A stretch of 64,000 nt of DNA from a virus, in the IMG/VR virus record IMGVR_UViG_3300027513_000010; one strand, 5' to 3'. Numbering within the stretch: position 1 is the first letter of the stretch; the number at the start of each line of letters is the position of its first letter. The translations under genes and the position numbers were made by a program. Positions 36,624 through 64,000 of the stretch are shown piece after piece. The notes beneath the pieces were generated by a model. The model made no database searches. It was not told where the DNA came from and saw nothing but the letters and a program-made list of their open reading frames with translations.

Positions 36624-37351
36624 AGATCAGACGCAAGTGCGTTTTGAAAGGGCACAAATACATCGAGTCGATCAACGGGTATCGGTCTCCGTACCAATTC
36701 TGTGCTCGCTGGTTCTGCGATGGGGCGCAGCCTGATCCTCATTTGGTCGAGATGGGGATTCTCCCGGCTGAAATCCCCGATGAGTGGCGGCGGTAGGTGT
36801 ACGTCAATTGCTCCCTCTCACGGATGGGGCGGGTCGAATCGATTCAAATTTGGCGAACCATCGATGGTGGTTGGGATATTTCATTCGCTGTCGATTGCGA
36901 CATGGATGAGTTGATGCACATATCTCGGGTGTCGCAAACTCACATGTTTCACCAGCCTCAGACGCAGGCAATCGTGGCTAGGGTGCTGGCTGCTTTAGAG
37001 GACTTGGAACAAGATGAGCCTGGAACGTGATTTGGCCGAAATCAAGATCGTCCGAATCCATGACATTTTCATGGAGAACGGTTTCAAGGGTGGGCCGGAT
37101 GAGGCCCGTCGTATCGCTACCGAGATTCTCGACATGATCGAAGAGCTTGAGGCTGAGGCACCCGTAGGAACGTGAGAACGGCGCAAGCGGCACTGGCGGG
37201 ACTCGCCGCTCTCTTGCTTCTGCTCTCGACCATCCTCTTCACCACCGAGACCAACACAGTCTTCGCTAGTGTCTTCGCCATCGCGGGGTTGGTCATAACC
37301 GCCGCCCTAGCGGGCATCATCGTTTACGAAGCGCGGAGGCAAGGGCAATGA
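36620..37351 (+). other. Four small hypothetical genes
   Basis: 36620-36796, 36797-37030, 37014-37175, 37172-37351 (two TM). Confidence 0.55.
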
Positions 37352-39846
37352 CCGCCAGTCCGACCACAGAGCCGGTGACACAAGAGCAGGCCGAGCAAAT
37401 CCCGCAGAACCTCTATCCCTACGCCGCCGCTCTCTTGCTGGCATATATGGCGACCAACGACGAGCAGCAAGATCGTCGGAGCCGACTCTTTGCTCAAGCT
37501 CTGGCTGCTTCTGCTACCTCGGTGTTTGGGGTGATGGCTCGGGGTCTGAACTACCGATCAGCGGCCAAGCCCTTCGCCGACACTGCGGCTGAGGCCGTTT
37601 CTCAATTTCGCGAGAATCATCCCGAAGCCACCGAGGTCGAGATTTCAAAATTCGTGGATGCGGCTGCGGCCACGCTCGCCACCGGCGCAGGATCACGCAC
37701 CACGCTTGAGGTTTTACGGACTCTCGATCCCGAGGGGGCCAATTTCAAAAAGATGTGGCTCACTCGTGGGGATGCCAAAGTTCGCGAATCTCATCGCTTG
37801 CTGCATGGGCAGACAGCCTCGGTTGGTGACTCTTTCAAGCCGGGCCTTTCCTATCCCGGCGACCCGAGTGCCCCGCTTGATGAGCGAATCAACTGCCGGT
37901 GTTTCTTGTGGGCAGTGCCTAACGCCGGGGTGACCGACGAGGACATCGCTCGGGCTTTTGAACCAGCGGATTTGGAAATGGCCTTCGCCGCCAGTGCTGC
38001 CATCACCGCAGCCTCGATGCGGAACACCCTGCGCCATCTGATGCGGGTCGCTCCCTGGACGTGGCAACCCCGAGACAGCATCGGTCGGTGGGTCGAAGTC
38101 AATGACGTGCTCCATGTCCCGTCGAGAACGGGGCGGGGCAAGGAACGAGTTCGGGTCACGGACATCACCGGGCGGAACAAGATCGAAGTCGAGAGTCTCC
38201 GTTTCCCCGACCGCCGGTGGGAGATGGATTCCCGAGATGCCGTGCCTGACTTCGCCAAGGCCGAGCTTCCTGGCCGGGAGCGCTCGATGCGGGCACCCAA
38301 CATTCCCACCAGGGACATGCGTGAGCTTCCGGTCTCGCAATTTGTCGAGGGGCCAATTGATCGAACCCGACCGTATCGGGAAGTCCGACCTTCGCTGATC
38401 GGTGATGAGTCGATTGGTGTCGGGGTTCCCTTTTTCAGTGCCGATGAGATTCCCGTTGGCGATGTCGTGGTGGTCGAGTCGAAGAGCCGACCGGGGCAGT
38501 TCCGGTACATGGTCGTGGACGACGTTGACCTTGATGCCAATACCGCCACCCTGCTCTATCCGCCCGAGCCTGGCGAGATGTTCACCGGCGAGTCGGGTGA
38601 GCGCATCTTCCAGCTTCGCCAGGCCAACGCACAGCAATTGGTCAACGTCGGTGATGGCGTCGTCTACGAGGCGGCTGATCCGGCCCTGGTCGAAGAGACC
38701 ATCGCTCGGTTTGAGTCCTCACGATTCGGTTTCGCGAACCCCCGGTGGTTCTCCGGCACCGACGACGCTTTCAAGGAAGGCTACGAGCGCACCGATTGGG
38801 CACCGGAGCGGAAAGAGCTTCACGACCGCATTGTTCAGGATGCCTTCGACCGAGCACTCCCGGCGCAGGGATCGGCCAAGTTCTACATGATGGGCGGTGG
38901 GCCGTCGTCGGGGAAGAGCACGATGTTGCTGGCCGACACGGTCGATGTCCCGCTTGGTGAGAATGCCATTCAGATCAATGCCGATGACATCAAAGAGTTC
39001 CTCCCCGAGTACGTCGGGTTGAAAGAGGCCGACATTCGCTCGGCTTCGACCTTCGTTCACAAAGAGTCATCGGAGATTTCAAGCCGGATGATTCGGGAGG
39101 CTCCCGAGGACAAGCACGTTGTTCTCGATGGGGTCGGTGACAAGGGTGCCCACGAAGTGATGAATCGTTTGCGGACGGCCAAGAGCCGGGGTCAGCGCAC
39201 CGTCGCCAACTACGCCACCTTGCCGACCGACATGGCGGTGATGCTTTCCAATAAGCGGGGGGAGGAAACGGGTCGGTACGTGCCCGAGGACTACATCAGA
39301 CGAGCGCACGCCGACGTGACCGACACCTTCTTCGACCTTGCCAAGATGAACGCTCTCGATGAGTTGTATCTCTGGAATACCGAGCAGTGGGACGACGTGA
39401 GGAAGGTCGGAATCCCGAGGCTGATCTACAGCCAAGTTGACGGCAGGGCGGTGATTCACGATGAGGCGCTCTTGCTGGAATTCCTCAGCAAGTCCCGCAC
39501 CAGGCGGCACAGCATCGAGAGCATCATTGGGCTGACCCAACTTCCCGAGGCGCTTCCTCCGATAGCCGAGTTCCCCGAGTTCCCGCCACCGACTGGCATC
39601 TTGCCCGAAGTGACCGGTGTGCCTGGTGAAGCTCCGGCAGGGCTGGCGGCTGCGGCCAACTTCTACGACTCGCTGGATTGGAACACCTTGGAGCAGGCGT
39701 TGATCGAAGTCGGGGCCGAGCTTCGGGGAGCCAAGTTCGCCTCCAAGCTGCCCACCGACGATCCTCAGATTGAGCTTTTGAAAACCAATCTCAAGGACGA
39801 GTTCTCTGATCCTGCCAAGCAGATCGTCGTAATCTCCAACCCATGA
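37348..39846 (+). CDS. MuF (Mu gpF)-like head protein fused to zeta-toxin-like P-loop kinase
   Basis: KMWLTRGDAKVRESH...YPGDPSAPLDERINCRC; GGGPSSGKST, INADDIKE, VHKESS, VVLDG, GRYVPEDYIRRAH. Confidence 0.85.
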   Translation: MTASPTTEPVTQEQAEQIPQNLYPYAAALLLAYMATNDEQQDRRSRLFAQALAASATSVFGVMARGLNYRSAAKPFADTAAEAVSQFRENHPEATEVEISKFVDAAAATLATGAGSRTTLEVLRTLDPEGANFKKMWLTRGDAKVRESHRLLHGQTASVGDSFKPGLSYPGDPSAPLDERINCRCFLWAVPNAGVTDEDIARAFEPADLEMAFAASAAITAASMRNTLRHLMRVAPWTWQPRDSIGRWVEVNDVLHVPSRTGRGKERVRVTDITGRNKIEVESLRFPDRRWEMDSRDAVPDFAKAELPGRERSMRAPNIPTRDMRELPVSQFVEGPIDRTRPYREVRPSLIGDESIGVGVPFFSADEIPVGDVVVVESKSRPGQFRYMVVDDVDLDANTATLLYPPEPGEMFTGESGERIFQLRQANAQQLVNVGDGVVYEAADPALVEETIARFESSRFGFANPRWFSGTDDAFKEGYERTDWAPERKELHDRIVQDAFDRALPAQGSAKFYMMGGGPSSGKSTMLLADTVDVPLGENAIQINADDIKEFLPEYVGLKEADIRSASTFVHKESSEISSRMIREAPEDKHVVLDGVGDKGAHEVMNRLRTAKSRGQRTVANYATLPTDMAVMLSNKRGEETGRYVPEDYIRRAHADVTDTFFDLAKMNALDELYLWNTEQWDDVRKVGIPRLIYSQVDGRAVIHDEALLLEFLSKSRTRRHSIESIIGLTQLPEALPPIAEFPEFPPPTGILPEVTGVPGEAPAGLAAAANFYDSLDWNTLEQALIEVGAELRGAKFASKLPTDDPQIELLKTNLKDEFSDPAKQIVVISNP

Positions 39847-40538
39847 CCGCAGTTGACACTGCGCTTCGGGAGCCACCCACTTTCAAAAAGTGGGTTGAAG
39901 GCCAGGGCGAGTACGAGCCAATCATCAAGCTCATCGAGGATGCGCCGGACAAATACGATTTCAAAACGTACGTCGCTCTCATCCCCGACGAGCATCTCGA
40001 TCTGTACCTCCGAGCCGAGGCTGAGTGGAAGACCGATGCCGCGGCCCACAAATCGACCAAGCACGCGCTCGGCCTGGACAAGCCTTCGCCCGAGGCGGCG
40101 ATTATCAAGCTGCAACCCAATTGCGTCTTCCGATTCCGTTCGGGGCGCATGTGTGGCCGGGAGGTTGTGCCCGGTGTTGACCGATGCACCAAGCACGGTG
40201 GCGCTCTCATCGACCCCGAGGTTCGGCGTAACATCTTGCTCAGTGCCTACGCCAACATTGTCGAGGGTTCTCAGAAGGCGGTGGATGCGCTTCTGGACGT
40301 GGCTGAGAATGGTCGGTCGGAGATGGCCCGTGTTCAGGCGGCTAAGGAACTTCTCGACCGTGCTGGTCTCACCGCCGATGTCAATGTGAACGTCCGTATC
40401 TCGGCTGAGGTCGATGCCGGGGCTATCTTGCGGGAGCGCTTGGAGACCATGTCTACCAAGATCGAAACCGTAGAAGTCGAAGTCATCGAAGTCGAGGGCG
40501 TAGATGTCGAGCCGGTTGCTGGAACAGTCGGTAGCTGA
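39843..40538 (+). CDS. Terminase small subunit (putative)
   Basis: CGR...RCTKHGG; SEMARVQAAKELLDRAG; directly upstream of the large subunit. Confidence 0.7.
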   Translation: MTAVDTALREPPTFKKWVEGQGEYEPIIKLIEDAPDKYDFKTYVALIPDEHLDLYLRAEAEWKTDAAAHKSTKHALGLDKPSPEAAIIKLQPNCVFRFRSGRMCGREVVPGVDRCTKHGGALIDPEVRRNILLSAYANIVEGSQKAVDALLDVAENGRSEMARVQAAKELLDRAGLTADVNVNVRISAEVDAGAILRERLETMSTKIETVEVEVIEVEGVDVEPVAGTVGS

Positions 40539-41949
40539 ACGCTACGCCGGTCTCTCGGATGAAGAGAAAGGCTCTCTCACCGATGGGATCAATCCCAACG
40601 ATCTTTTATGGTCTTCTGAATTCTGGCTCCGTCCCAAGCAACTGCGAGCACTGCACTCTGATGCCTGGATCACACTGATCCTGTCAGGCCGTGGTTTTGG
40701 AAAAACACGGACGCTCTCGGAGTGGGTCAAGAAAAAGGCCGAGGCCATGCCTGGCACTCGTATCGCCTTGATCGGTCGAACCGTGAGTGACGTGCGGGAC
40801 ACGATGGTTCAGGGTGAGGCGGGAGTCCTGGCAGTGCATCCTCCCGAGTCACGACCCGAATACATGCCTTCGGTTCGGAAGGTGGTTTGGCCCAACGGGA
40901 GCATGGCAATCACTTACTCGGCTGAGTCGCCTTCTCAGCTTCGTGGCCCCTCTCATCACTTTGCCGCCGTCGATGAGCTTGCCGCTTGGAAGCTGGTGCC
41001 CGACGATTCGGGAGCCAACGCATGGGACAACCTCTTGATCGGTTGTCGGCTTGGCGATACCCCGCAAGTGATGGCCGTCACCACGCCGAAGAGGGTGCCG
41101 CTCATCAGGGAGTTGGTCACGCAGGCGAAAGACCCGAGCTACAACGTGAAGATTTTGAATGGGTCAACGATGGAAAACAAGTCCAATCTGCCCGAGGAAT
41201 ATATCGCGCAGCTTCTCCATCAGTACGGCGGAACTTCCCTGGAACAGCAAGAGCTTCTCGGGGTGCTTCTCGATCATGTCGAGGGTGCGCTGTGGCGGGA
41301 CAAGGACATTCTCATCGAGGGCTTGCCGGAGATTCCACGCTTTTTGAAAGTCATCGCCGTCGATCCCGGCGTGACCTCCGGCGGGGATGCCACCGGCATC
41401 GTGGTTGTCTACGGGTCGCCGGAGCGGGTTCGGAACGACCGGCGAGCTTGGGTGGTGGACGATTTGACCGAGCCAGGGCTTGAGCCGGAAGAGTGGGCCA
41501 AGCTCATTGTGGATGCCGCCCGAGTTCACAAGGGAGCGCTGGTCGTGGTCGAGGGGAACATGGGCGGCGACCTCGTCAGGACGGTGATTCATCAGATCGA
41601 CCCATCGGTACCGGTAGTCACGGTGCACGCTTCCAAATCGAAAGCTGCCCGAGCCGAGCCGGTGGTGATGGCGTATCGGATGGGCCGGGTTCGGCATCTC
41701 GCTCAGTTCCTCTTGCTTGAGGACGAGATGACTTCATGGGAGCCAACGGGTCGCTGGTCGCCTAACCGAATGGACGCGATGGTGCATGGCATCCGCGCTT
41801 TGCTGATCGATGACACTGAGATGCTCGGCTTCGGATCGATTCGCTCTTCGATGGAGCGCTATCGGGAGACCACCATTCACCTTCCCAACTTCCTGCGGAG
41901 CAGAGCGGACGTTCCAATGGGTGCGTGGCGCAGAATCAACCGGGACTGA
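40504..41949 (+). CDS. terL: Terminase large subunit
   Basis: SGRGFGKT (Walker A), AAVDEL (Walker B), IAVDPG...GDATGIVV and SPNRMDA nuclease motifs. Confidence 0.95.
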   Translation: MSSRLLEQSVAERYAGLSDEEKGSLTDGINPNDLLWSSEFWLRPKQLRALHSDAWITLILSGRGFGKTRTLSEWVKKKAEAMPGTRIALIGRTVSDVRDTMVQGEAGVLAVHPPESRPEYMPSVRKVVWPNGSMAITYSAESPSQLRGPSHHFAAVDELAAWKLVPDDSGANAWDNLLIGCRLGDTPQVMAVTTPKRVPLIRELVTQAKDPSYNVKILNGSTMENKSNLPEEYIAQLLHQYGGTSLEQQELLGVLLDHVEGALWRDKDILIEGLPEIPRFLKVIAVDPGVTSGGDATGIVVVYGSPERVRNDRRAWVVDDLTEPGLEPEEWAKLIVDAARVHKGALVVVEGNMGGDLVRTVIHQIDPSVPVVTVHASKSKAARAEPVVMAYRMGRVRHLAQFLLLEDEMTSWEPTGRWSPNRMDAMVHGIRALLIDDTEMLGFGSIRSSMERYRETTIHLPNFLRSRADVPMGAWRRINRD

Positions 41950-41996: not shown

Positions 41997-42383
41997 ATGA
42001 TTACTAGACCTAGACCGGGACACCGGGCCGGATATTCCATCGGAGCTTTTGGCTCGCCGAAGTTTCTTCATCGCTCTTACGAAGAGGAACGGCTCATGGA
42101 CACCATCACTGAGTTGGAGCGACAGATCGAGCGCCGGGAGTCGTTGCGGGCGTATGACACGCAACCCGGCCAACGATTGGGCCGAGTCGAAACGCACAAA
42201 TACAACTTCTACGCCAAGGCCTTCCAACCGAACGATCCCGACTTCGCTGTGGTGCGGACATCGCGCAAGACGGCGGTGGTGACGTTCTTCATGGAGACCG
42301 GGAAGCTCCGGCCCGTCACCAAGGAATTGCCTCTGGACGAGGCACTCAAAATCGCAGACCAAATGAATCGAGGTATCAAATGA
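41997..42383 (+). CDS. Hypothetical protein co-transcribed with Fic
   Basis: 128 aa; ATGA overlap with the Fic gene. Confidence 0.65.
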   Translation: MITRPRPGHRAGYSIGAFGSPKFLHRSYEEERLMDTITELERQIERRESLRAYDTQPGQRLGRVETHKYNFYAKAFQPNDPDFAVVRTSRKTAVVTFFMETGKLRPVTKELPLDEALKIADQMNRGIK

Positions 42384-42820
42384 CTCTCAGTATCACGGAT
42401 TACAGAAAAGTGAAGGATTGGGCCAGGGCCGAATGCGTTCGCCAGGACGCGGACACGCCTGATGCGCTCCGGCGCATGATCGAGGCGTGGAACCTCGCTT
42501 GCCTTGCTGAGAAGATGTCTCTCGCTCTGATCTTGGGTCTCGGTTACATCATCGATCCAGAGAAGAACGATGGTTTCCGCAAGCGCAACATCGCGGTCGG
42601 TCACGGCACCTTCGACGTGCCGCCCGATTGGAGAGACATTCCTCGGTTGCTCATGCAGTTGGTCGAAGCGGACATCTCACCGGCTGAGTGGTATCGGGAG
42701 TTCCAGCGCATTCATCCGTTCCTCGACGGGAACGGGCGGGTGGGCGCTCTGATCTACAACAAGCTCAGTGGAACACTCGATTCCGAAGCGTTGACGGCAG
42801 CGCCGGAGTACCGGCCATGA
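42380..42820 (+). CDS. Fic/Doc-family protein
   Basis: GFRKRNIAVG...EFQRIHPFLDGNGRVGA. Confidence 0.9.
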   Translation: MTLSITDYRKVKDWARAECVRQDADTPDALRRMIEAWNLACLAEKMSLALILGLGYIIDPEKNDGFRKRNIAVGHGTFDVPPDWRDIPRLLMQLVEADISPAEWYREFQRIHPFLDGNGRVGALIYNKLSGTLDSEALTAAPEYRP

Positions 42821-49961: not shown

Positions 49962-51271
49962 GGTACGTCGAGCAGTACGTGAATCCCGACGAGATTCCCC
50001 GCATCAACGAATCGGTGCGTGGCACCCACAAGTCCGTTATCAAAGTGTGGGGCACGCAGTACGACCCGGCTCAGTGGAAGCTCCATCCGATGGTCGATCC
50101 GACCGGATGGACGGAGACCAAGTTCAAGGTCATCAGTGGGGAAGTCACCGAGACCTTGGGCGAGGCCATCACCCGAGAGCTTTCTCTGTCGGTCGCTTCT
50201 GATTATTGGGACGATCCTTTCGACATCTTGGTTGAGGCCACTCCCTACAAATCTCTGATCGCTGTCGCCCGAGGAATCGAGACTGTGAATGGCGAGCAGA
50301 TGCTTGTCCCGCTCGGGGTCTACCGGCTGCACTCGGTTTCAACTTCCGGTAATGCCGAGACTGGCTACGAGTTGGGGGTCACCGGGTACTCGATGGAGGC
50401 GGATATTCGGGAGGCTCGCTTTTTGAAAACTCCCATCGCTGGTGTGGCCCCCGGCGAGATTGGCGAGAACGTAATGCTCGGCATACTTCAGTACCTAGTC
50501 GAAGAGGCGTTCCCCAAATCCATCTCTGGCAACCTCGTTCCCTTCCGTGCCAACACCGGAGGCCAAGACCTCGACTACGTCTTCCCGCCGGGCAGTGTGC
50601 TCACCGATGACCGGGAGCGCCTCGATCTGATTTTGGAATATCAGGAGGCGAACGAAGTGTGGGGCCGCTTCGACCGGGACAATTCGTACGTCATTGACGA
50701 CATGCCGAGTCCGGCTGATGCTCCCATCGATTTTGTAATCAACGGTGACGAGGCCGGGGTGCTCATGCGATACGACATGGAGTTCACCCGAGAAGAGGTC
50801 TTTAACGCAGTGCTCGCCTTCGGGGAGTACGCCATCGGGAATTTGAAATTGCAGGCTTCGCATCTGGCGAAGGACATGGACGTGCTCTCACCGACCTATT
50901 GGGAGGGGCCGTTCGGCCAGGTGCCGATGTTCCATCGGGTGGAATTCCTGCCCAACAACACGGCGGGAGCCAACAACACCGTCATTCGGGTGGCGAACAA
51001 CCTTTTGCGGAGGCGGAAGGATTATCACTCGGCGGTCAATTTTGAAACTGTTCCAAATCCGCTCATCGAGGCGGGTGACGTGGTCGAGCTTCGCTATCCG
51101 GTCAATCCGACTCTGACATCAGGAGCCAGCGCCGGACAGGAGTTCCTTTCTGAATTTCACTTGATTCGCTCTATCACCATTGGACTCGGGGCTGACACCA
51201 GCTTCTCGGCTGAGACCGTGGCGAACGGTGAGACTTCCACGGTTTTGAAAAGACTGAGGGTGCCGGAGTGA
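49958..51271 (+). CDS. Minor tail / baseplate hub-like protein
   Basis: VPLGVYRL...DRERLD...EVFNAVLA...[12 protein letters not shown]...[11 protein letters not shown]. Confidence 0.75.
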
Positions 51272-54200: not shown

Positions 54201-54339
54201 TGGAGATACGCCTAGCCACACTCACAGCATCGACATCGCTCAGTTCAACACCGGTTCCACTCCCGCCGCTACGACGGCTCACGAGAACCGCCCGCCTTAC
54301 CTCGGGTTGAATTTCATCATCAAGGCAACCTCGGGGTGA
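51268..54339 (+). CDS. Long tail fibre: collagen-like G-X-Y repeats plus tail collar domain
   Basis: Extended GAT/GPQ/GPE triplets at about 52090-53225; [11 protein letters not shown]...LCDG...[12 protein letters not shown]; terminal [15 protein letters not shown]. Confidence 0.9.
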
Positions 54340-55768: not shown

Positions 55769-56512
55769 ATGGTGCTATTGCTCAATCAGTCCGTAGATGC
55801 GCCGGACATCTTCGGTACCAAGCACAACCTTCTGGACACCGGGAATCGACCGGGCAGTGATGGGCGGTGGGAAGAGGGAGTCGTCTTCGTTCCGCAGGGT
55901 TGCTTCGATGTCAATGTCGAAGAGGCCAACTGCCCGCCCGCTGAGAAGTCAGCCGATTTTCAAGATTGCCCCGATGCGGTGTCATTCGTTCCTTTCGTGA
56001 TCGAGTTCGGAGTGCAATTCATCGGCCACGAGATAACCGAGGCGGTTGAACGGGAACTCGACATCAAGACTTCCGCCGCCATCGAAGAGGCGATATGGGG
56101 AGGGACAGCAACTTCCCCGACCAATCCCAAGCTCTCGGATGGCGTTGCTACCGGCGGCACCGCCGCCAACTCACGAGAGGCGATGGCCCGGTTGGAGGCC
56201 AAGCTGATCGCAGATGGGATGCAGGGCGGGACAATCCACATGTCGGCCTATGACGCAGTCCTGGCCGAAGGTGCGATGACCGAGAAGGACGGCAAGCTCT
56301 ACTCATCCGTCACCGGCAACCCCGTCGTGGTTGGGAACTATCCGGCTGGTCAGATGGCAATACACGGTGGCGAAATCGATGTGTATGTGTCAGAGGAATT
56401 CACCACTTCCAGCTACGAAGAGTTGCTGTCGAACACCCTGCTCTACAAGGTCGAACGGCTGGCTCTCGCTGTCTGGAACCCCTGTTACGTATTCACGCAA
56501 TCGGTGACATGA
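55769..56512 (+). CDS. Major capsid pentamer protein
   Basis: RWEEGVVF...FVPFVIE...AAIEEAIWGG...AMARLE...GNPVVVGNY...VERLALAVWNPC. Confidence 0.75.
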   Translation: MVLLLNQSVDAPDIFGTKHNLLDTGNRPGSDGRWEEGVVFVPQGCFDVNVEEANCPPAEKSADFQDCPDAVSFVPFVIEFGVQFIGHEITEAVERELDIKTSAAIEEAIWGGTATSPTNPKLSDGVATGGTAANSREAMARLEAKLIADGMQGGTIHMSAYDAVLAEGAMTEKDGKLYSSVTGNPVVVGNYPAGQMAIHGGEIDVYVSEEFTTSSYEELLSNTLLYKVERLALAVWNPCYVFTQSVT

Positions 56513-58134
56513 GGTTTTTTGAGGATGATGGTGGGCGGCAACAAGCACCGCCATTCAATTCCCCACGGTCGTTCTCGGCCTCAGCCAAGAAGATCGACCT
56601 CACCAAACGTAACGAAGAGACCCACAAGCCCGAGGCCTGGCAGACGGCGGCGTGGTCGTTCTACGACTCCATCGGCGAGCTTCACTTTGCGTTCAATCTG
56701 ATCGGGCAAATTCTTTCTCAGATCAGGCTCTACGCCGCCATCGTGGATGACCCTGAATCTGCGCCGGTGCGATCCAGTCTCTTTTTGGAAGAGTTTGCAA
56801 GAGAGCACGAGGTCTGGCCGGACAACACCGCCGAGTTGGTCTCGGCGGCAGACAAGGTGCTCTACGACCTATTGGTGAACTCGCCGGGAATGGGTTCGGG
56901 ACTGCTTCGTGAACTCGGGATCAATCTCTCGGTCTCCGGCGAGTGTTACTTGGTTCGCGAAAAGCAATGGACGATTGCCTCGACCGACGAGTTGAAATCC
57001 AACGGGGCGGGTCAGGGCTACACCATTCAACGTAGCCGGAAGACCTCGACGGTCACGGCGAGCAAGGATGACAAGCTCCCCGACAACACCTTCGTCGCCC
57101 GTATCTGGCGCTCCCATCCTCGCTTCTCATCCGACGCTGACTCGTCCATGATCGGTGTGCTTGACTCGTGCGAGCAACTGACCTTGCTCACGCAGGCCAT
57201 CCGAATGATGACTCGGTCTCGGATGAACGCCGGAGTCATCTTCGTGCCGGACGGCCTCTCCGCTGGCATCGATGACGACAACCCGCAGAGCATCGAAGAC
57301 GCTCTGATTCAGGCGGCGGTCTCCCCGTTGGAGGAAGAGTCAGCGGCGACTTCGGTGGTGCCATTGATCCTCACCGGCCCGGCTGCGCTCGGTAAGGAAT
57401 TGAAAAAGATCGACTTGGGCCGTCCCGTAGACGAGCAAATGGTTCAGCTTGCCGAGGCAACTCTTGACCGGGTTTTGCAGGGGATTGACATTCCAAAGAA
57501 CGTGGTGCAGGGCTTGAGCGATGTCAAGTTCTCCAACGCCATCATCATTGACGACAATCTCTACAAGGCCCACATCGAGCCGCTGGCCTTGATGATCGTG
57601 GATGCTCTCACCACGGTCTACTTCCGACCGGCGCTGAAAAAGCTCCATCCCCAAGAGGATGAGACCCTTATCAATCGATTGGTGATTTGGTTCGATCCAT
57701 CTGACATTGTCACCCGACCCGACAAGAGCACCGCGGCCAATGAGGGCTTTGACCGGAACATCATCTCGTACCAGGCGTGGCGGTCGGCTCGGGGCTTCAC
57801 CGATTACGACAAACCGACCGATGACGAGCTTCTCACTCGCATGGCTTTGGAGCGGACACAGATTCCTCCCGACATTGCCGCTGCTCTCATCGAGAGGCTC
57901 AATCCCGAATACTTCGCTTCTCTTCGGCAAGCCGGGCAGGAAGAGGCCGGTATCCCCGACGACATCTCGTCACTGCTTGAGGGCGGTGGCGGGGAGGGAA
58001 GCGGGATGGACGAACTCGGGGCGATGTTCAGATCAGAGACCAACCCAGCCGGTGGCCGCACACCACCGGACGAAGCCATGCAGGGCGGTGAGGTTCAGCC
58101 GGGAGGCAATCTGCCGCCGAGGGAGCAGCCATGA
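56509..58134 (+). CDS. Portal protein
   Basis: WQTAAWSFYDSIGELHF...RIWRSHPR...SRMNAGVIFVP...VVPLILTGP; 541 aa. Confidence 0.85.
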   Translation: MRFFEDDGGRQQAPPFNSPRSFSASAKKIDLTKRNEETHKPEAWQTAAWSFYDSIGELHFAFNLIGQILSQIRLYAAIVDDPESAPVRSSLFLEEFAREHEVWPDNTAELVSAADKVLYDLLVNSPGMGSGLLRELGINLSVSGECYLVREKQWTIASTDELKSNGAGQGYTIQRSRKTSTVTASKDDKLPDNTFVARIWRSHPRFSSDADSSMIGVLDSCEQLTLLTQAIRMMTRSRMNAGVIFVPDGLSAGIDDDNPQSIEDALIQAAVSPLEEESAATSVVPLILTGPAALGKELKKIDLGRPVDEQMVQLAEATLDRVLQGIDIPKNVVQGLSDVKFSNAIIIDDNLYKAHIEPLALMIVDALTTVYFRPALKKLHPQEDETLINRLVIWFDPSDIVTRPDKSTAANEGFDRNIISYQAWRSARGFTDYDKPTDDELLTRMALERTQIPPDIAAALIERLNPEYFASLRQAGQEEAGIPDDISSLLEGGGGEGSGMDELGAMFRSETNPAGGRTPPDEAMQGGEVQPGGNLPPREQP

Positions 58135-60245
58135 CAAACGAACGAGTGCTCGACCTCTATGCCGAGTGGGAGGAAGCCCTTTCCTATCCCGAGCCAAATT
58201 TGGAAATCGTTGCTGGTTTGGAGGCCCAAGCTCTGAACGAGGGGATTGATCTTCGGGAGGTCAATTACGTGCTGGTGCATGGGCTGACCGCCGCCGTTTG
58301 GAATCCCGACCTTCATCCCCGAGGCCGGGACGGACGGTTCATCGAAGTGATGGGTCTCATTCAGCTTTTTGATTTTGGTGATGGGCCGGACGGCACCAGG
58401 GGCAAGGTCAAAGAGATTCGGCCCGGCAGAACCAAAGGCAATCCCGACATCGACGTTGAGCTTTCTGATGGGCGCACGGTCACGGTGAAGCCGAATCAAG
58501 TAGCGACTGCTCCCGAGGTCAAGGCCGATCTGGATTTTGGACGGCGAGACAGCGGTGACTTCATCCGGTCGGTGCCGGAGATTCCAAGCTCTCGGGAGAT
58601 GCAGGAGTTTGAGGGTCGGACTGATCCGACCGCCGAGCGGCTGCGTCGGATGGAGGCGTATCGAAATCGAGTTCATCAGACTCCCGAGCCTTCCTATCTG
58701 CTTGAGACCGAAGGGTTGGAAGAGGCATTTTCGACTGGCGTTCCCAAGTCGGTTGCTGAGGGATTTCAGCGGTATCGACTCGATGCCGAGAGCCGGGGCG
58801 AGCAGGTACTTGACCTCGATGATTGGGTACGGGCGGGACAGCCGGGGCCGGAAGCACCGGAAGTGGTGCCCGAGGGCAGGCCTTTTGAAAATCTATCCGA
58901 CTCTGATCTTCAGACTCGCTACGCCGAGTCGGTTGACCAACTGATCGGCGACCTTCCTGAAGGCGAGATGCTCGATGTGGAATTGGAAAACACGCTGCTC
59001 CGTGAAGAGCTAGATCGTCGTTCGATACCACGGCGGAAAGAGGATCGACCTTTCCGCAATCTCAGTGATGACGAGCTTCGTGACACTTACCAACGCACGG
59101 TCGATGCCGCCATTGGCGACGTTGATGAGCAATTGGTCGAATCGCTTGGTTTGGATGCCGAGTATCTCCAAGAGGAATTCACGGCTCGTGGATTGGATCG
59201 GCCTCGGACACCGGCTTCGCCTGCCGAGCCTCGGGCCTACAACGAGAGTCGTGAGGTTGGGAACCTCATGGTGGGTGACGAAATCATTTTGCCCGGTGAC
59301 ATTCCCGGTGTGATTGAGGATTTTGAATTTGCTGAGAATGATCCTGGCCGAGTCACGATTCGTACCGACAACGGCAGCTACCAAGGCAAGACCACCGACA
59401 TTCTCCCGAGCTTTCGAGAGGGCACCGATGAGGGGCTGACTCCCGCTATTGCCGGGGCCAATACCAATCAGATCGGCGAAGAGATTTCGGTCGAAGCTGG
59501 TGAGGTCGGGTCGAGAGAGAATCCACTCCAAACCTCGGACGTGATGGAGGCGGTTACTGCTTTGCACGAGGGGAAGTACGTCGAGCTACAGAGCGTCGAT
59601 CAAGTCTCGACCTTGCTTGATGAGCTTGCCCGAATCGCTAACGAGGCCAAGGCTGCGGGCGAAGATGCTCCCAACTACGACCTCTGCTTGGTCTCGGTTC
59701 CCGACACCAACCTCTTCTGCGCTGAGTCGAAGGGCATCCCGAGAATCCAGATGCCACAGCTTTCCGGTATCCCGGTCGAGGGGTCTCCCGCCGATGCGCT
59801 CCCCAAGAACAAGGATGGCGAAGTTGACATCGGGCCTGCCTTTGCTCAATACCTTCGGGACAAGGGCATCTCGGTCACTGAGAAGAGGCGACCGGCTTCG
59901 CATCTCAAGGCCTCTCAGAACGAGCTAGTCGGGGCCAAGGTCGCCGGGATGATGAAGTGGCTGGAAGGCGATACCGAGACTGCCCGCAACGTCATCCGTG
60001 AGTCATCGATTTTCACGACCTCAGATGATTACGTGGTGGACGGCCACCATCGGTGGGCAGCGGTGGTCGGTCTGGATGCAGCGGAAGGCGGGCTGGAAGA
60101 CCTCGATATGCCAGTGCAGGAAATCGACCTCCCCATCCTCGACGTTTTGAAAGAGGCCAATGACTTCGCTACTTCTTACGGCGTGCCGCCGAAGGGTGCC
60201 GGAGCAGGAGCGAGTGTGGGAGGCGCGCCCGGTGGTGCTGGATAA
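58131..60245 (+). CDS. Large acidic virion-associated protein with C-terminal ParB/Srx-like domain
   Basis: WNPDLHPRGRDGRFIE; LKASQNEL...YVVDGHHRWAA. Confidence 0.75.
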   Translation: MTNERVLDLYAEWEEALSYPEPNLEIVAGLEAQALNEGIDLREVNYVLVHGLTAAVWNPDLHPRGRDGRFIEVMGLIQLFDFGDGPDGTRGKVKEIRPGRTKGNPDIDVELSDGRTVTVKPNQVATAPEVKADLDFGRRDSGDFIRSVPEIPSSREMQEFEGRTDPTAERLRRMEAYRNRVHQTPEPSYLLETEGLEEAFSTGVPKSVAEGFQRYRLDAESRGEQVLDLDDWVRAGQPGPEAPEVVPEGRPFENLSDSDLQTRYAESVDQLIGDLPEGEMLDVELENTLLREELDRRSIPRRKEDRPFRNLSDDELRDTYQRTVDAAIGDVDEQLVESLGLDAEYLQEEFTARGLDRPRTPASPAEPRAYNESREVGNLMVGDEIILPGDIPGVIEDFEFAENDPGRVTIRTDNGSYQGKTTDILPSFREGTDEGLTPAIAGANTNQIGEEISVEAGEVGSRENPLQTSDVMEAVTALHEGKYVELQSVDQVSTLLDELARIANEAKAAGEDAPNYDLCLVSVPDTNLFCAESKGIPRIQMPQLSGIPVEGSPADALPKNKDGEVDIGPAFAQYLRDKGISVTEKRRPASHLKASQNELVGAKVAGMMKWLEGDTETARNVIRESSIFTTSDDYVVDGHHRWAAVVGLDAAEGGLEDLDMPVQEIDLPILDVLKEANDFATSYGVPPKGAGAGASVGGAPGGAG

Positions 60246-63200
60246 GCCCGAACTTCGGGGTCTGGAACTCAGTGAGGACAATGTCGAGTCGCTTCTCGAC
60301 ATGTTCAACGACGGAACGACTCGCTGGTATGCGACTCGTCGTGCTCGGGGGTTCGCCACCGCTGGTCTGCTCGCTGGCTCGTATTGGAATCCCGACCTTC
60401 ATCCTCGTGGGCCGGACGGGAAGTTCATCGAGACCGGCGGCTTCATTCGCTGGCTACTCGATGGCATCTGGCAGCGGGGTCGGGTAGAGAACATTCTCCC
60501 GAGCGGGAAACTCATCGTTGCGCCCGATGATGAGAAGCTCGGAGCGAATGTCGTCATCCCGACCAACCAGGCTTACGGACTCCCCACTCCGAAGGGCACC
60601 ATTCATTCCACGCCCGACCCACAGTCCGACATGGAAATGGACAACTGGATCAAGAGCGGAGCACAGGGAGGCTCCAATCCTGGCGGGTTTTATACCACAA
60701 CTGAAACGGAGAAACTGGCCGTCGATCCCACGAGTGACTACGTCACTCAAGTTGCCGAGTCGCTCGGCGATGACCTCAGCTTCATCGACTACCCGAACCA
60801 ATCACTTGCTTTCAAAAGTGCGATGGGCACCCCTCAGTATTTCGTGGCGACGTACACCGACAAGGCTGGGAACCAAGAGGTCATCTACGGCAACGGTGGC
60901 TCCGGTTATCAGCAAGGGGTCAACCCGGCGTGGGACGAAGCCAGGAATGCCGCTGATTTGAAAGTGTGGGTCACGACTGATCCCGCCGTCCAAGAGGCGG
61001 CTCGATTGGCCCTGGAACACGAGGACATCGCACCCGGCACGCAGTTTTACATCAAACGCACCAAGAGCCTCGATCACGGTGCCAATGAGATGCTGGCGAA
61101 CGAGCTTTACAAGGTGGCCGGGGTTCCGGTGCCAGACCTTTACTTCGGCCAGCATCAGACGGTGGCTTCCAAGATTTTGAAAAGCGCCACTCCCGAGGGC
61201 ACGGTCGTTCCACTGAGCAAGGCGCTCGATGATCCCGATGTGATTCGCCAGATTCGCGAAAACATGGTGGTCGATGCCTGGCTCGCCAATTGGGACGTAG
61301 CCGGTATGACCCACGACAACATCATGGTCGTGGACGGGGTGCCGTATCGGATCGACACCGGTGGCTCACTTCAGTACCGGGCGCAAGGCGCTCCGAAGGG
61401 GAGCCAGTTTGGGCGCGTAGTTGGTGAGGTCGATAGCTACCTCAATTCAAGTATCAACCCTTCCTCGTCCCAAGTCTTCGCCGGGATCACTCTGAACGAG
61501 CAGAAGATGGGAGCGCAGCGAGTCGCTGCGATTCGTCCCTCACAGATCAAGAACATGGTCTCCGGTGCTGGCCTCGACCCCGACGTAGCGGACATCTTGA
61601 TTGCTCGTCGGGACTACCTCTTGGAAAAGTACGGAGTGGCTGACCCGTTTGCCTCGTACACGCCGCCGAAGTTGATAACGGTGGGCAAGGGCAACGTGTC
61701 TTCTCAGATGTTTTGGAATCCGATTTCAAATCAGTGGGAACCCGGCACGATCAATTTCACTCCATCGAATTTGATAAACAAGATGGAAGCCGAACTAGCA
61801 ACGCTATGGCAGAATTCCGATCCTGAACTCGGCCCGGTTCTTGGTGACACCGTTGTTGCTTATCCCGGTGGCGGGCGCATTGGGCTGTTCCGTGTGACCG
61901 GCGTGGACATGACCGGGAATTTGCAAATGGTCTCGGCGGTCGATCCCGACAACCACACCGTCTACATGGACACAACCGTTCCCGGTTCCCACTACTCCCC
62001 TCGTGTGGTTGAGCCAACGGAGTCTTTCAATCAACTGCATACGCAGTACGAGGTCGCTCAGACGAACAATCAGCTTGTCGGGCACTCACTGTGGAATCTG
62101 TTCAATCTGACCATTTCCAACGAGGGGTCAGACAAGCCACCGCTGGCACTGCAACCCCAAGCGCTGGTGAGCAAGGACATTTTCGCGGATGCCAAGGCGG
62201 GTGACTTCCTCTTTCACCGCTACCCCGACCCTGAGAAGCCGGGCACACAGCATGACGTGGTCTATCGGATCGACGGTATCTCGGAAAGCTCGATTGCGAT
62301 GACCTCGATGCTCGATGGCAAAGAGCGCTTCATCTCTAGGCCAGAGTGGGAAAACGAAGACGTTGAAATCAAGGCTCAGTGGCACATTCCCGATCCCTTC
62401 ACCCAGGATCAGACCCTCGGGATGATGCTTCGGGATGACCTCATCACCGCCGATGACACCGCAACCAGCACCGAGTTTTCTGGCGGTGAGCCGGAAGACA
62501 CTGACTTGGCGGAAGAGCTTGACCAGCCCACGGCCTGGAATACGACTCCCTACACCCCGGCTGACTTGGCGGCTCTCGGGGTGTCACCGACTTACACCGA
62601 TCCCACAACCGGAGTCAATGCCCACGTTCAAATTGGCGAGTCGGTGGGTCTGGACTCGATCTACGAAGACTTCGTCGCGTCCTTGCAAGGCCTTCCTCCG
62701 ATAGAAGATGCCGGGACACATCACAACGAGACTTCGCTCAACGAGTGGGTGGGGCAGAGCGTCATCCTTTCAAATCCCGTCAATCCAGAGCACAGTTCGA
62801 CCGGTCTCTTTTACGTGAAGTCAGCCGCCTTCGATGTGAAAAAGAGCTACTACGGCGACAAGACCATCATCGGGAATCTCTATCTGATAAGCCCGACCGG
62901 GGAGAACAAGACCCTGGCGATCAGCACGCAGGCCAGTCAAACCAGCTTCAGATTGCAGACGGCTACAACTCTCGATGCTTCGATCCCGCAAACCATTCCC
63001 ACATTCAAAAAGAATGGCGACATCATCTACGAAGGTGTCCTTGTCGGACACCATGCCTCGGGCTACAACAATTATGCGGCGACCATCCTCCCCGAGTTCA
63101 CCATCAACGGGGCAAAAACCACGATCACTAGTTCCCGCCAGCGTGAGCTACGGAAGAACATCGGCAAGAACATCATTCCGCAGCTTCAGCCCACCGTGGT

Positions 63201-64000
63201 TGAGAAGTCGGAGGCGGTCAAGAAGTCGAAGGACACGATTCTCTCCAAGGCGAGTTTCAAAACCCGCAAGGACTTCACACCGGGATCATGGGTTGCCGCA
63301 CCCGATGGTTTCACCGGCAAGGTGTGGGAGGGCACAGATGATGCTCTCGCTCAATTCCCACAGGCAGTCAGGATTTACGGCGCTGACGGCAAGTCCCGAA
63401 TTATCAACGCCAATCTTCTCGTTTCGATAGACGAGCCGAGCACTCCGGTTCCGGTTCCGGTCGAAGATGTCGCCATTACCGATGCTCCCTTCTGGCCCTT
63501 GAAACTCAAAGACGGGAACGATCCCCGCATTGGTCAGTACGTCCGAGCCTTCGGGCCGGGTGACAAGATCACTGAGGGAACAATCAATTGGGTTGGCCCG
63601 CCCGATGGCAAGCAGGCCAAGGTCGCTCCCCTGCTTGCTATCACAACCGATGAGGGCAAGGTCATTCGGAAGACCTTGAGCAAGACCATCTTGCTCAAAG
63701 ATGTCGATGGTGCTCCGGTTCCCTCGGCGACTACCGAAGAGGGACTACCCGAAAGCGCCAAGGCTTCGGTCGAGATGGCGATTGATTTCACGGAGACACA
63801 AATCTCCGATGCTGCCATCAAGTATGTCTCCCCTGACGGCAAGACCCTGGCACAGCCGCAATGGGAGCGGGACAACTGGCTTTCCGGCTCGCCGTATCGC
63901 ACGCTGACCAAGGACGGGTTCGCTCCCAAGGTTGGAATGCGAGTGCGAACTACCGATGACCAGGCCGCAGTCATCGTCATGGAAGACGACGTTTTCAAAA
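60232..64000 (+). CDS. Very large protein (over 1250 aa, truncated) with HipA/PI3-4K-like kinase domain; absent from ORF track
   Basis: Manual translation open to the window end: WNPDLHPRGPDGKFIE; GAQGGSNPGGFY...FYIK...ANEMLANELY...DAWLANWDVAG...DNI...RIDTGGSL. Confidence 0.8.
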   Translation, partial: MVLDKPELRGLELSEDNVESLLDMFNDGTTRWYATRRARGFATAGLLAGSYWNPDLHPRGPDGKFIETGGFIRWLLDGIWQRGRVENILPSGKLIVAPDDEKLGANVVIPTNQAYGLPTPKGTIHSTPDPQSDMEMDNWIKSGAQGGSNPGGFYTTTETEKLAVDPTSDYVTQVAESLGDDLSFIDYPNQSLAFKSAMGTPQYFVATYTDKAGNQEVIYGNGGSGYQQGVNPAWDEARNAADLKVWVTTDPAVQEAARLALEHEDIAPGTQFYIKRTKSLDHGANEMLANELYKVAGVPVPDLYFGQHQTVASKILKSATPEGTVVPLSKALDDPDVIRQIRENMVVDAWLANWDVAGMTHDNIMVVDGVPYRIDTGGSLQYRAQGAPKGSQFGRVVGEVDSYLNSSINPSSSQVFAGITLNEQKMGAQRVAAIRPSQIKNMVSGAGLDPDVADILIARRDYLLEKYGVADPFASYTPPKLITVGKGNVSSQMFWNPISNQWEPGTINFTPSNLINKMEAELATLWQNSDPELGPVLGDTVVAYPGGGRIGLFRVTGVDMTGNLQMVSAVDPDNHTVYMDTTVPGSHYSPRVVEPTESFNQLHTQYEVAQTNNQLVGHSLWNLFNLTISNEGSDKPPLALQPQALVSKDIFADAKAGDFLFHRYPDPEKPGTQHDVVYRIDGISESSIAMTSMLDGKERFISRPEWENEDVEIKAQWHIPDPFTQDQTLGMMLRDDLITADDTATSTEFSGGEPEDTDLAEELDQPTAWNTTPYTPADLAALGVSPTYTDPTTGVNAHVQIGESVGLDSIYEDFVASLQGLPPIEDAGTHHNETSLNEWVGQSVILSNPVNPEHSSTGLFYVKSAAFDVKKSYYGDKTIIGNLYLISPTGENKTLAISTQASQTSFRLQTATTLDASIPQTIPTFKKNGDIIYEGVLVGHHASGYNNYAATILPEFTINGAKTTITSSRQRELRKNIGKNIIPQLQPTVVEKSEAVKKSKDTILSKASFKTRKDFTPGSWVAAPDGFTGKVWEGTDDALAQFPQAVRIYGADGKSRIINANLLVSIDEPSTPVPVPVEDVAITDAPFWPLKLKDGNDPRIGQYVRAFGPGDKITEGTINWVGPPDGKQAKVAPLLAITTDEGKVIRKTLSKTILLKDVDGAPVPSATTEEGLPESAKASVEMAIDFTETQISDAAIKYVSPDGKTLAQPQWERDNWLSGSPYRTLTKDGFAPKVGMRVRTTDDQAAVIVMEDDVFK

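What the first reader, a model, noticed from the sequence alone, without database searches (positions are those of the whole stretch)
37348..64000. Three large enzymes share a W-x-P-x-x-[HQ]-P-R-x-x-x-G-[RK]-[FW]-x-E tag: candidate packaged and injected effector set
ORF 58131 has WNPDLHPRGRDGRFIE (58299-58346), ORF 60232 has WNPDLHPRGPDGKFIE (60385-60432), and the MuF fusion has a shorter WTWQPRDSIGRWVE (38056-38097). In each case a small beta-rich segment follows. The three otherwise carry unrelated catalytic domains: zeta-like kinase, ParB/Srx-like, and HipA/PI3K-like kinase. All are encoded next to terminase or portal genes. Inference: the tag is a shared capsid/portal-loading signal for a modular arsenal delivered with the DNA for host takeover or anti-defence.
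Basis: partly seen in the sequence, partly recalled or inferred. Interest (0 to 1): 0.8.

Follow-up and report, generated by a model that had tools for sequence, protein, structure and literature searches.

The report
Shared leader tag on phage-head cargo
Three (really four) large enzymes encoded beside the portal, terminase and head-protease genes of this uncultured phage carry the same short, very conserved peptide; hundreds of other phages and some archaeal viruses carry it in front of each effector module. It probably labels proteins that travel in the capsid, but this is untested.

Summary
WNPDLHPRGRDGRFIE (58299-58346), WNPDLHPRGPDGKFIE (60385-60432) and a divergent WTWQPRDSIGRWVE (38056-38097) are the only three matches to the core pattern in all six frames (0.05 expected). 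A fourth canonical copy heads a double zinc-metallopeptidase gene just past the window end, right after the prohead protease.

In this phage the tag caps an SH3-like beta-barrel (AF2 pLDDT about 96 over the tag).

The tag is widespread. It was found in:
- 84 IMG/VR loci
- 163 protein clusters, with 1-7 copies per protein
- Gordonia and Streptomyces phages
- halovirus HHTV-1

It lies mostly near the N-terminus of large proteins next to portal, terminase, MuF or protease genes. In relatives the window's modules are fused into one polyprotein, with a tag in front of each module. Most clusters carry the tag without the barrel.

The best reading is an address and probably processing peptide for capsid-carried, co-injected effectors. 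That makes it a T4-CTS-like function for polyvalent proteins. Loading itself is unproven.

No Pfam or NCBIfam model and no paper I searched describes the tag. This scan has already reported the same theme on other DNA (at least 31 genomes).

The parts
37348..39846 (+). Gene for an 832-aa MuF / tag / beta segments / zeta-kinase fusion (P0001), directly upstream of TerS
   Evidence: Pfam Phage_Mu_F (residues 129-186) and Zeta_toxin (residues 504-671, E 2.9e-19). PHROG head-morphogenesis families.
38056..38097 (+). Divergent copy of the tag (WTWQPRDSIGRWVE) right after the MuF domain
   Evidence: Profile hit E 3e-4 covering residues 241-283. Invariant in four orthologues.
38857..39360 (+). Zeta-toxin-like P-loop kinase domain of P0001
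   Evidence: Pfam PF06414, 69.7 bits against a cutoff of 22.3.
39843..41949 (+). Terminase small (39843-40538) and large (40504-41949) subunit genes
   Evidence: phrog_2538; Terminase_6N and Terminase_6C.
56509..58134 (+). Portal protein gene
   Evidence: phrog_776, E 4.8e-89.
58131..60245 (+). Gene for a 704-aa protein (P0002): leader, tag, SH3-like barrel, acidic linker, ParB/Srx-like domain
58299..58346 (+). Canonical tag WNPDLHPRGRDGRFIE (residues 57-72 of P0002)
   Evidence: AF2 pLDDT about 96 over HPRGRDGRFI.
58272..58544 (+). Tag plus SH3-like barrel unit of P0002
   Evidence: Profile match E 1.9e-37. AF2 mean pLDDT 86.8. KOW/Tudor/PhnA-like, Z 7-8.7.
59550..60218 (+). ParB/sulfiredoxin-like C-terminal domain of P0002
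   Evidence: Atlas features 0.95 to a ParBc_2 cluster; structure TM 0.72-0.80 to viral ParB/Srx clusters. phrog_2859. DGHHR motif.
60232..64000 (+). First 1256 codons of a 2106-aa giant protein (P0005; start 60160-60232 is ambiguous) that runs off the window
   Evidence: Full length read from L001:12102-18422.
60385..60432 (+). Canonical tag WNPDLHPRGPDGKFIE (residues 52-67 of P0005)
60349..60639 (+). Tag plus SH3-like barrel unit of P0005
   Evidence: Profile match E 7e-17. 36% identity to the P0002 unit.
60634..61641 (+). Atypical protein-kinase-like domain of P0005
   Evidence: AF2 core pLDDT 60-90. VIA Z 12.7 CtkA, 12.5 actin-fragmin kinase, 11.3 PI4KII-alpha, 11.1 HipA. Foldseek PI3K/HipA/Bud32. 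Invariant K, D, N and D columns.

Best explanation
The motif is a portable leader peptide of about 20 residues, consensus [LV]-T-A-A-x-[WF]-[ND]-[PE]-x-L-H-P-R-[GD]-x-D-G-[RKQ]-F-I-E. It stands in front of each effector module of a phage 'polyvalent protein' arsenal.

In this phage the arsenal is split into four genes in the head-morphogenesis module:
- MuF-zeta kinase
- a ParB/Srx-like protein
- a 2106-aa giant with an atypical kinase
- a double zincin metallopeptidase, just outside the window

Here the tag forms the ordered N-terminal cap of an SH3-like barrel.

The most likely mechanism is inferred, not shown. During prohead assembly the tag is recognised by a conserved head-assembly component (portal, scaffold/core or maturation protease), so each tagged module is enclosed in the capsid. 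Where modules are fused, or preceded by a leader, they are cut at or near the tag by the prohead protease or by the tagged metallopeptidase. The enzymes then leave with the DNA at infection and act on the host (cell-wall precursor kinase, DNA/NTP-directed ParB-like enzyme, protein or lipid kinase). Functionally this is the T4 capsid-targeting-sequence logic applied to polyvalent proteins.

Shown: the motif, its conservation, its modular position, its genomic context and its domain partners. Inferred: loading, cleavage and ejection.
For: Not chance:
- Three hits against 0.05 expected in the window.
- 84 IMG/VR loci match a 41-bit DNA pattern, and all 85 occurrences lie in frame in long ORFs.
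- 163 representative clusters at E<=1e-3.

Modular position:
- 112 of 144 proteins have their first tag within 100 residues of the N-terminus.
- 34 of 144 have 2-7 tags, never closer than 129 residues (median gap 310), so there is one tag per domain-sized module.

Fusion and fission:
- P0010 (2156 aa) carries tag+barrel in front of a module 67% identical to the ParB-like domain of P0002, and a further tag+barrel in front of a zeta kinase.
- In L153 three tagged genes follow a portal 47% identical to ours.
- In L151 five consecutive genes each carry the tag, four of them near the N-terminus, and one has seven copies.

Context: of 19 upstream neighbours, about 11 hit portal families (my reading of overlapping family counts; one search gives no per-member table). 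The rest are terminase, head protease or MuF.

Cultured phages: the tag lies in the N-terminal part (residues about 25-150) of the large 'hypothetical' gene after the portal in Phendrix/GodonK and Gilgamesh, and two genes upstream of the Mu gpF-like gene in HHTV-1.

Partners are polyvalent-protein domains:
- Zeta_toxin 12, ART-PolyVal 2, MuF, GNAT, PG_binding.
- HExxH peptidase motifs in 16 of 149 proteins against 3.7 expected.

The portable unit is the tag, not the barrel: 22 of 28 pattern-ascertained clusters carry the tag alone.

Selection acts on the protein: synonymous codons are random, 19 of 40 identical against 0.41 expected.

The processing machinery is present: a prohead protease (phrog_18402) sits directly before the tagged double-HExxH protein.

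Precedent: T4 internal proteins share only a CTS (PMC3012670). P1 Dar proteins are loaded in order and partly processed (PMC12810830). Polyvalent proteins are predicted to be injected and cut by metallopeptidases (PMC5512222).
Against: - No carrier of the tag has virion proteomics, N-terminal mapping or a packaging assay that I could find.
- The binding partner is unknown. Portal families next to tagged genes are diverse while the tag is nearly invariant, which argues against a sequence-specific portal contact.
- In this phage the tag is predicted to pack onto its own barrel. If so, it may not be free to dock elsewhere.
- In P0001 a MuF domain already offers a head-incorporation route, so a second signal would be redundant.
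- The complex test could not be run.
Confidence: 0.5

Rival explanations
1. The tag is only a proteolytic processing site. The prohead protease or the tagged zincin metallopeptidase cuts at it to separate modules or remove leaders. Head incorporation is achieved by other parts, such as MuF or the barrel.
For: - Tags lie at every module boundary in polyproteins.
- A small-residue stretch (T-A-A) precedes the motif.
- A prohead protease and a tagged double-HExxH protein are encoded together.
- Metallopeptidase motifs are enriched among tagged proteins.
- Iyer et al. predict metallopeptidase processing of polyvalent proteins (PMC5512222).
Against: - Single-module proteins with the tag 5-30 residues from the start would gain little from cleavage.
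- A 16-residue near-invariant motif with buried aromatic residues, predicted to be ordered, is unlike most cleavage sites.
- The peptidase itself carries the tag.
Confidence: 0.2
2. The tag, with the SH3/KOW/Tudor-like barrel where present, acts after injection. It is a common docking module that brings different enzymes to one conserved host or phage target, such as nucleic acid, the ribosome, RNA polymerase or the incoming DNA end.
For: - The barrel resembles KOW, Tudor, PWWP and helicase SH3 domains that bind nucleic acids or partner proteins.
- The motif is basic and aromatic.
- Conservation from actinobacterial phages to a halovirus would fit a universal ligand such as DNA.
Against: - Fold matches are generic (Z 7-8.7, the range the tool says is common by chance).
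- Most clusters lack the barrel.
- Strict association with head-assembly genes rather than early genes.
- A metallopeptidase and cell-wall-directed zeta kinases would not share a nucleic-acid target.
Confidence: 0.15
Its spread reflects duplication and shuffling of that domain.
For: In this phage and its closest relatives the tag and barrel always occur together, and the tag is modelled as part of the fold.
Against: - 22 of 28 pattern-ascertained clusters have the tag without the barrel.
- In those clusters it is followed by Gly-rich linkers, VERPxDxP or other sequences.
- The tag is far more conserved than the barrel.
Confidence: 0.08
4. The conserved stretch is a DNA-level recombination site that lets cassettes be swapped between genes.
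For: A 48-nt direct repeat at 85% identity joins the two canonical copies (family D5). Near-identical tags repeat within single proteins.
Against: Among identical residues the codons agree no more often than codon usage predicts (19 of 40 against 0.41). Flanks are unrelated. Conservation holds across phyla at the protein level only.
Confidence: 0.03

Closest known systems
Polyvalent proteins of phages and conjugative elements (Iyer, Burroughs, Anand, de Souza, Aravind 2017; PMC5512222)
   Same: - Same domain repertoire: MuF, zeta kinase, ParB-like, kinase, zincin metallopeptidase, ART-PolyVal.
- Same context beside virion genes.
- Same predicted delivery with the DNA and predicted processing by metallopeptidases.
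- Relatives of the window's proteins are true multi-module polyproteins.
   Different: - Here the arsenal is split into four genes.
- The paper as I could search it mentions no shared leader motif.
- None of the Pfam LPD or PolyVal models matches the tag or its barrel.
- The kinase described there lacks the C-lobe and comes from Verrucomicrobia and Bacteroidetes, whereas this one is CtkA/PI4K/HipA-like.
Capsid targeting sequence (CTS) of phage T4 internal proteins IPI-III and Alt
   Same: A short conserved N-terminal peptide is the only thing shared by a diverse set of capsid-carried, co-injected anti-host proteins (PMC3012670). This is the proposed logic here.
   Different: - No sequence similarity.
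- The T4 CTS is about 10 residues at the extreme N-terminus. It binds the scaffolding core and is removed by the prohead protease.
- Here the tag is about 20 residues, often internal and repeated, ordered on a barrel in this phage, and its partner and fate are unknown.
Phage P1 Dar system (DarA, Hdf, DarB, DdrA, DdrB, Ulx)
   Same: Large enzymes, including a DdrB ParB-like/metallopeptidase protein and the roughly 2000-aa DarB, are packed in the head, partly processed and ejected with the DNA (PMC12810830; PMC5512222).
   Different: P1 loading depends on the DarA/Hdf adaptors bound to the capsid interior, and no common peptide tag is known. No DarA or Hdf homologue was seen here.
MuF polymorphic toxins of temperate phages (Jamet et al. 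2017; PMC5576092)
   Same: P0001 has the N-terminal MuF plus C-terminal toxin-type domain layout.
   Different: - No small immunity gene follows, since TerS starts 4 bases before the stop.
- The paper does not mention a linker motif.
- Two of the four tagged proteins have no MuF domain.
Encapsulin cargo-loading peptides
   Same: A short conserved peptide addresses diverse enzymes to the inside of an HK97-fold shell. This is a functional analogy only, drawn from my own knowledge.
   Different: Unrelated sequence. Those peptides are usually C-terminal, and their binding to the shell protein is demonstrated, which is not the case here.

Membership tests
Polyvalent proteins (Iyer et al. 2017) | Two or more domains of disparate activity in one polypeptide | tested here: met
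   P0001 is MuF plus zeta kinase. P0158 has two HExxH modules. The relative P0010 combines GNAT, ParB-like and zeta modules. P0002 alone carries only one catalytic module.
Polyvalent proteins (Iyer et al. 2017) | Domains drawn from the characteristic repertoire (MuF, zeta, DdrB-like ParB, kinase, MPTase, ART) | tested here: met
   Whether the ParB-like domain belongs to the DdrB clade was not tested.
Polyvalent proteins (Iyer et al. 2017) | Encoded with virion or DNA-transfer genes | tested here: met
   Flanked by TerS/TerL, portal and prohead protease. Neighbour survey.
Polyvalent proteins (Iyer et al. 2017) | Delivered into the host with the DNA | not testable with these tools
   Needs virion proteomics or injection assays.
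MuF polymorphic toxins (Jamet et al. 2017) | N-terminal MuF domain with variable C-terminal toxin domain | tested here: met
   P0001 only: Phage_Mu_F at residues 129-186 (25.7 bits, below the Pfam cutoff of 29.6, but PHROG head-morphogenesis hits reach 1e-16) and Zeta_toxin.
MuF polymorphic toxins (Jamet et al. 2017) | Cognate immunity gene immediately downstream | tested here: not met
   The next gene (39843-40538) overlaps the stop and matches a terminase small subunit.
T4-type capsid targeting sequence | Sequence similarity to the T4 CTS, at the extreme N-terminus | tested here: not met
   The tag consensus is unrelated to the T4 CTS, and the tag sits at residues 23-237 or internally. Only the logic is shared.
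T4-type capsid targeting sequence | Sufficient to load a foreign protein into proheads, and removed by the prohead protease | not testable with these tools
An experiment is required.
Zeta toxin kinases (PF06414) | Profile match above the curated cutoff | tested here: met
   69.7 bits against 22.3.
ParB/sulfiredoxin superfamily | Profile or fold match with the DGxHR-type motif | tested here: inconclusive
   No Pfam hit. Atlas feature score 0.95 to a ParBc_2 cluster and TM 0.72-0.80 to viral ParB/Srx clusters. DGHHR is present. PDB 1vk1 scores only E 0.77.
Protein-kinase-like fold, atypical branch (CtkA / actin-fragmin kinase / PI4KII / HipA) | Kinase fold with conserved Lys, catalytic-loop Asp/Asn and metal-binding Asp | tested here: met
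   Z 12.7-11.1 over about 200 residues. Foldseek hits are all kinases. Invariant K141/K144, D214, N219, D221 and D241. The model is only moderate (mean pLDDT 57.8, core 60-90). Branch assignment is not resolved.
SH3-like small beta-barrels (KOW/Tudor/PhnA type) | Five-strand barrel topology | tested here: met
   AF2 pLDDT of 90 or more for 65 of 109 residues. Z 7-8.7. This is a generic fold and no specific family is implied.

The most novel reading that the evidence does not exclude
The tag is a near-universal, transferable capsid-loading (and release) peptide of tailed viruses with HK97-type heads. It is shared by phages of Actinomycetota and Chloroflexota and by haloarchaeal viruses, and is read by a conserved head-assembly component. 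If so, it defines how polyvalent effector arsenals are packed, and it could be used to load arbitrary proteins into capsids.
Probability: 0.35. Interest if true: 0.8.

Novelty: new variant of a known kind. Interest (0 to 1): 0.62.

Why it matters
Phages are known or predicted to inject enzymes with their DNA (T4 internal proteins, P1 Dar, polyvalent proteins). How the large and fast-changing polyvalent arsenals get into the capsid is not known.

A single, easily recognised peptide in front of every module would help in three ways:
- It gives a sequence handle for finding injected effectors, including candidate anti-defence and host-takeover enzymes, in unannotated phage genomes.
- It explains how modules can be fused, split and swapped without losing delivery.
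- It provides a directly testable loading and processing signal in cultured Gordonia and Streptomyces phages and a halovirus.

Most partner modules have no Pfam match, so the tag also marks a large pool of unknown enzymes.

Tried and rejected
- Megablast of both regions against GenBank phages: no match.
- No whole genome is held for this window.
- The word-indexed homology search with the tag region returned only the query itself, because of its length and word limits. The exhaustive phmmer search was needed.
- Pfam at E up to 5, NCBIfam at E up to 1 and PHROGs give nothing for the tag or barrel.
- A profile search of PDB sequences gives only artefactual polyubiquitin sums and non-significant SH3-like proteins.
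- Text search of about 8.4 million papers for the motif strings found nothing relevant. Neither the polyvalent-protein paper nor the MuF-toxin paper mentions such a motif in the text I could search.
- No virion proteomics was found for HHTV-1 or the Gordonia phages.
- Alignment A5 included a wrong stretch of L063 and was replaced by A6.
- The recombination-site idea was rejected on synonymous-site counts.
- The idea that the 703-aa gene after the protease is the capsid protein was rejected: it is a tagged double-HExxH protein. I did not identify the major capsid protein of this phage.
Full report
**What is in the window**

- ORF 37348-39846 (P0001, 832 aa) has a MuF domain (residues 129-186) and a Zeta_toxin domain (residues 504-671, E 2.9e-19). 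Its stop overlaps the start of a terminase small-subunit gene, and the large subunit follows.
- ORF 56509-58134 is the portal (phrog_776, E 4.8e-89).
- ORF 58131-60245 (P0002, 704 aa) follows the portal.
- Next comes an ORF that runs off the window (start 60160-60232). In other assemblies of the same phage it is 2106-2118 aa (P0005).

The gene order is unusual: MuF-zeta, TerS, TerL, small genes, tape measure, tail and collagen-like fibre genes, portal, then the tagged genes.

**Is the motif more than chance?**

The core pattern [HQ]PR...G[RK][FW] occurs three times in the six-frame translation, only at the reported sites. Composition predicts 0.05 matches, and 3e-6 for the strict 16-mer, which occurs twice.

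P0002 and P0005 are homologous over about 110 residues around the tag (36% identity, E 2.5e-9) and unrelated elsewhere.

A profile of the unit built from 114 foreign sequences, with no window rows, gives:
- P0002: E 7e-38
- P0005: E 1e-17
- P0001: E 3e-4, the only other hit among 752 six-frame ORFs

The P0001 copy is divergent. Even so, its APWxWQPRDSIGRWVEV stretch is invariant in four orthologues that are 47-56% identical overall. It aligns residue for residue with the canonical L-H-P-R-x-x-x-G-[RK]-F-I-E-V-G-x-V.

**A fourth member**

Downstream of P0005 the phage encodes proteins of 264, 675 and 145 aa, then a 298-aa prohead maturation protease (phrog_18402, E 3.8e-54), then a 703-aa protein.

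The 703-aa protein (P0158, L093:11333-13444, outside the window) begins with a canonical tag at residue 23 plus the barrel (profile E 1.6e-30). It also contains two zincin HExxH motifs, at residues 304 and 617.

So the set in this phage has four members: zeta kinase, ParB/Srx-like protein, atypical kinase and metallopeptidase.

**The partner domains**

- The C-terminal domain of P0002 is ParB/Srx-like. The Atlas feature score is 0.95 to a ParBc_2 cluster, and structure TM is 0.72-0.80 to viral ParB/Srx clusters. It has no Pfam hit.
- The region after the tag unit in P0005 folds as an atypical protein-kinase-like domain (moderate model). It is nearest CtkA (Z 12.7), actin-fragmin kinase, CotH, PI4KII-alpha and HipA (Z 11.1). 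The Lys, Asp, Asn and Asp columns are invariant.

**Structure of the unit**

With a 117-row alignment, AF2 models P0002 residues 42-150 at mean pLDDT 86.8. The H-P-R-G-R-D-G-R-F-I stretch reaches about 96 and leads into a five-strand barrel. The barrel is a generic SH3-like fold (KOW, Tudor, PWWP, PhnA and helicase SH3; Z 7-8.7). That is the range the tool itself calls common, so it implies no function.

**Distribution**

- A 41-bit degenerate DNA pattern for W-N-P-x-L-H-P-R-x3-G-[RK]-F found 84 IMG/VR loci. All 85 occurrences are in frame in long ORFs and fall into about 29 clusters.
- An exhaustive phmmer search found 163 representative clusters at E<=1e-3.
- Across 144 proteins, 112 have their first tag within 100 residues of the N-terminus. 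34 have 2-7 tags, never closer than 129 residues (median gap 310). A median of 545 residues follows the last tag.
- The logo is [AT]-A-A-x-[WF]-[ND]-[PE]-x-L-H-P-R-[GD]-x-D-G-[RKQ]-F-I-E. It is far better conserved than anything around it (note that the sample was ascertained with this motif).
- In the sample ascertained by pattern alone, 22 of 28 clusters carry the tag without the barrel. It is followed there by Gly-rich linkers, VERPxDxP or other sequences. The tag, not the barrel, is therefore the portable element.

Cultured carriers are few, and the tagged gene is annotated 'hypothetical protein' in all of them:
- Gordonia phages Phendrix and GodonK: a 1479-aa gene right after the portal, with the same tag-barrel-kinase order as P0005.
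- Gordonia phages Forza, Boopy and Sixama.
- Streptomyces phage Gilgamesh: a 4624-aa gene after a portal-MuF fusion.
- Haloarchaeal virus HHTV-1: gp13, two genes before a Mu gpF-like gene.

In reference genomes the tag lies mostly on Streptomyces contigs of 125-135 kb. It also occurs in Actinomadura, Nonomuraea, Planomonospora, Microlunatus and a Thermomicrobiales MAG.

**Context and partners**

Of 19 upstream neighbours of tagged ORFs, I read about 11 as hitting portal families; this is my estimate from overlapping family counts, because one search gives no per-member table. The rest are terminase, head protease or MuF/head-morphogenesis proteins.

Pfam partners among 47 representatives:
- Zeta_toxin: 12
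- AAA_33: 5
- ART-PolyVal: 2
- MuF, GNAT, PG_binding_1, WGR and DUF6900: 1 each
- Most representatives have no match.

HExxH occurs in 16 of 149 tagged proteins against 3.7 +/- 1.5 in shuffles, mostly in one LVHEFGHQRQF-type family.

**Fusion and fission**

- P0010 (2156 aa) has three tags. One tag+barrel precedes a module 67% identical to the ParB-like domain of P0002. Another precedes a zeta kinase.
- Its genome (L153) has a portal 47% identical to ours. The portal is followed by three tagged genes with six tags in all, including a homologue of the metallopeptidase protein. Homologues of the 675-aa protein and the protease come next.
- In L151, five consecutive genes each carry the tag, four of them near the N-terminus, and P0088 has seven copies.

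Modules therefore keep their tag whether they are separate genes or parts of one polypeptide.

**Level of selection**

The two canonical copies form a 48-nt direct repeat at 85% identity. Among identical residues, however, codons agree in 19 of 40 cases against 0.41 expected from codon usage, and the flanks are unrelated. Conservation is on the peptide, not on the DNA.

**Interpretation**

The known framework is the polyvalent proteins of Iyer et al. (PMC5512222). These include MuF-zeta fusions, ParB-like domains, kinases and zincin metallopeptidases, are encoded by virion genes, and are predicted to be injected with the DNA and processed by the peptidases.

The closest functional precedent for a shared short label is the T4 capsid targeting sequence, the only feature common to the diverse internal proteins (PMC3012670). 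P1 Dar proteins give a second precedent for ordered loading and partial processing (PMC12810830).

I therefore read the tag as an address peptide, and probably a processing peptide, for capsid-carried effectors (confidence 0.5). The steps 'binds a head component', 'is cleaved' and 'is ejected' are all inferred.

Points against:
- The partner is unknown.
- Neighbouring portals are diverse while the tag is nearly invariant.
- The tag is modelled as packed on its own barrel in this phage.
- The binding test could not be run.

Rivals are processing site only (0.2), a post-injection docking module (0.15), a mere domain cap (0.08) and a DNA recombination site (0.03).

**Novelty**

No Pfam, NCBIfam or PHROG annotation and no searchable paper describes the motif. 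The concept is known; the specific, widely conserved tag appears undescribed.

This scan has already reported the same theme on other DNA. 32 earlier findings in at least 31 genomes describe shared leader tags on phage-head cargo, including (W/F)xE..H.RD..GRF and KFNPxH-G/D-xxGRF variants. Those are unchecked AI notes that reached the same reading. I saw them after forming mine and do not count them as independent evidence.

Noticed in passing
L093:11333-13444 (same phage, several kb beyond the window end): A 703-aa protein directly after the prohead protease carries a canonical tag at residue 23, the SH3-like barrel and two HExxH zincin motifs. It is the fourth member of the set and a candidate processing enzyme.
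   Followed up: partly
window 37348-64000 plus L093: Unusual module order: MuF-zeta, TerS, TerL, tail genes, portal, cargo genes, proteins of 264, 675 and 145 aa, protease, tagged peptidase. No major capsid protein or major tail protein was recognised by Pfam or PHROGs.
   Followed up: partly
window 42380-42820: A small ORF after the terminase has weak matches to two PHROGs of unknown function over a 20-residue stretch.
   Followed up: no
window 51268-54339 and 13736-14284: A 1023-aa tail fibre with long collagen-like Gly-X-Y repeats and a tail-collar domain. A second collagen-like gene lies in the left half of the window and shares repeat family D2.
   Followed up: no
L151:1-12542: On a 12.5-kb metagenomic contig, five consecutive genes each carry the tag variant WDESLHPRDERGRFGxGTG, four of them near the N-terminus. 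One 1734-aa gene has seven copies. No barrel follows these tags.
   Followed up: partly
L007:5620-8922 (HHTV-1 gp13) and IMG/VR loci L021, L029, L032, L045, L048, L049, L055, L084, L085: A halovirus-type variant of the tag is followed by a conserved VERP-x-D-x-P stretch in very acidic proteins. The tag therefore crosses the bacteria/archaea virus divide.
   Followed up: partly
L099-L148 (Streptomyces contigs of about 125-135 kb): Dozens of Streptomyces genomes carry the tag on contigs of similar size to Streptomyces phage Gilgamesh (129 kb). This suggests resident Gilgamesh-like elements whose giant (over 4000 aa) tagged gene follows a portal-MuF fusion.
   Followed up: no
alignment A3; P0158 residues 8-22; P0002 residues 47-56: A second, weaker conserved element, R-V-H-G followed by [LM]-[TV]-A-A, often lies 5-15 residues upstream of the tag. 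The functional peptide may be about 30 residues long.
   Followed up: no
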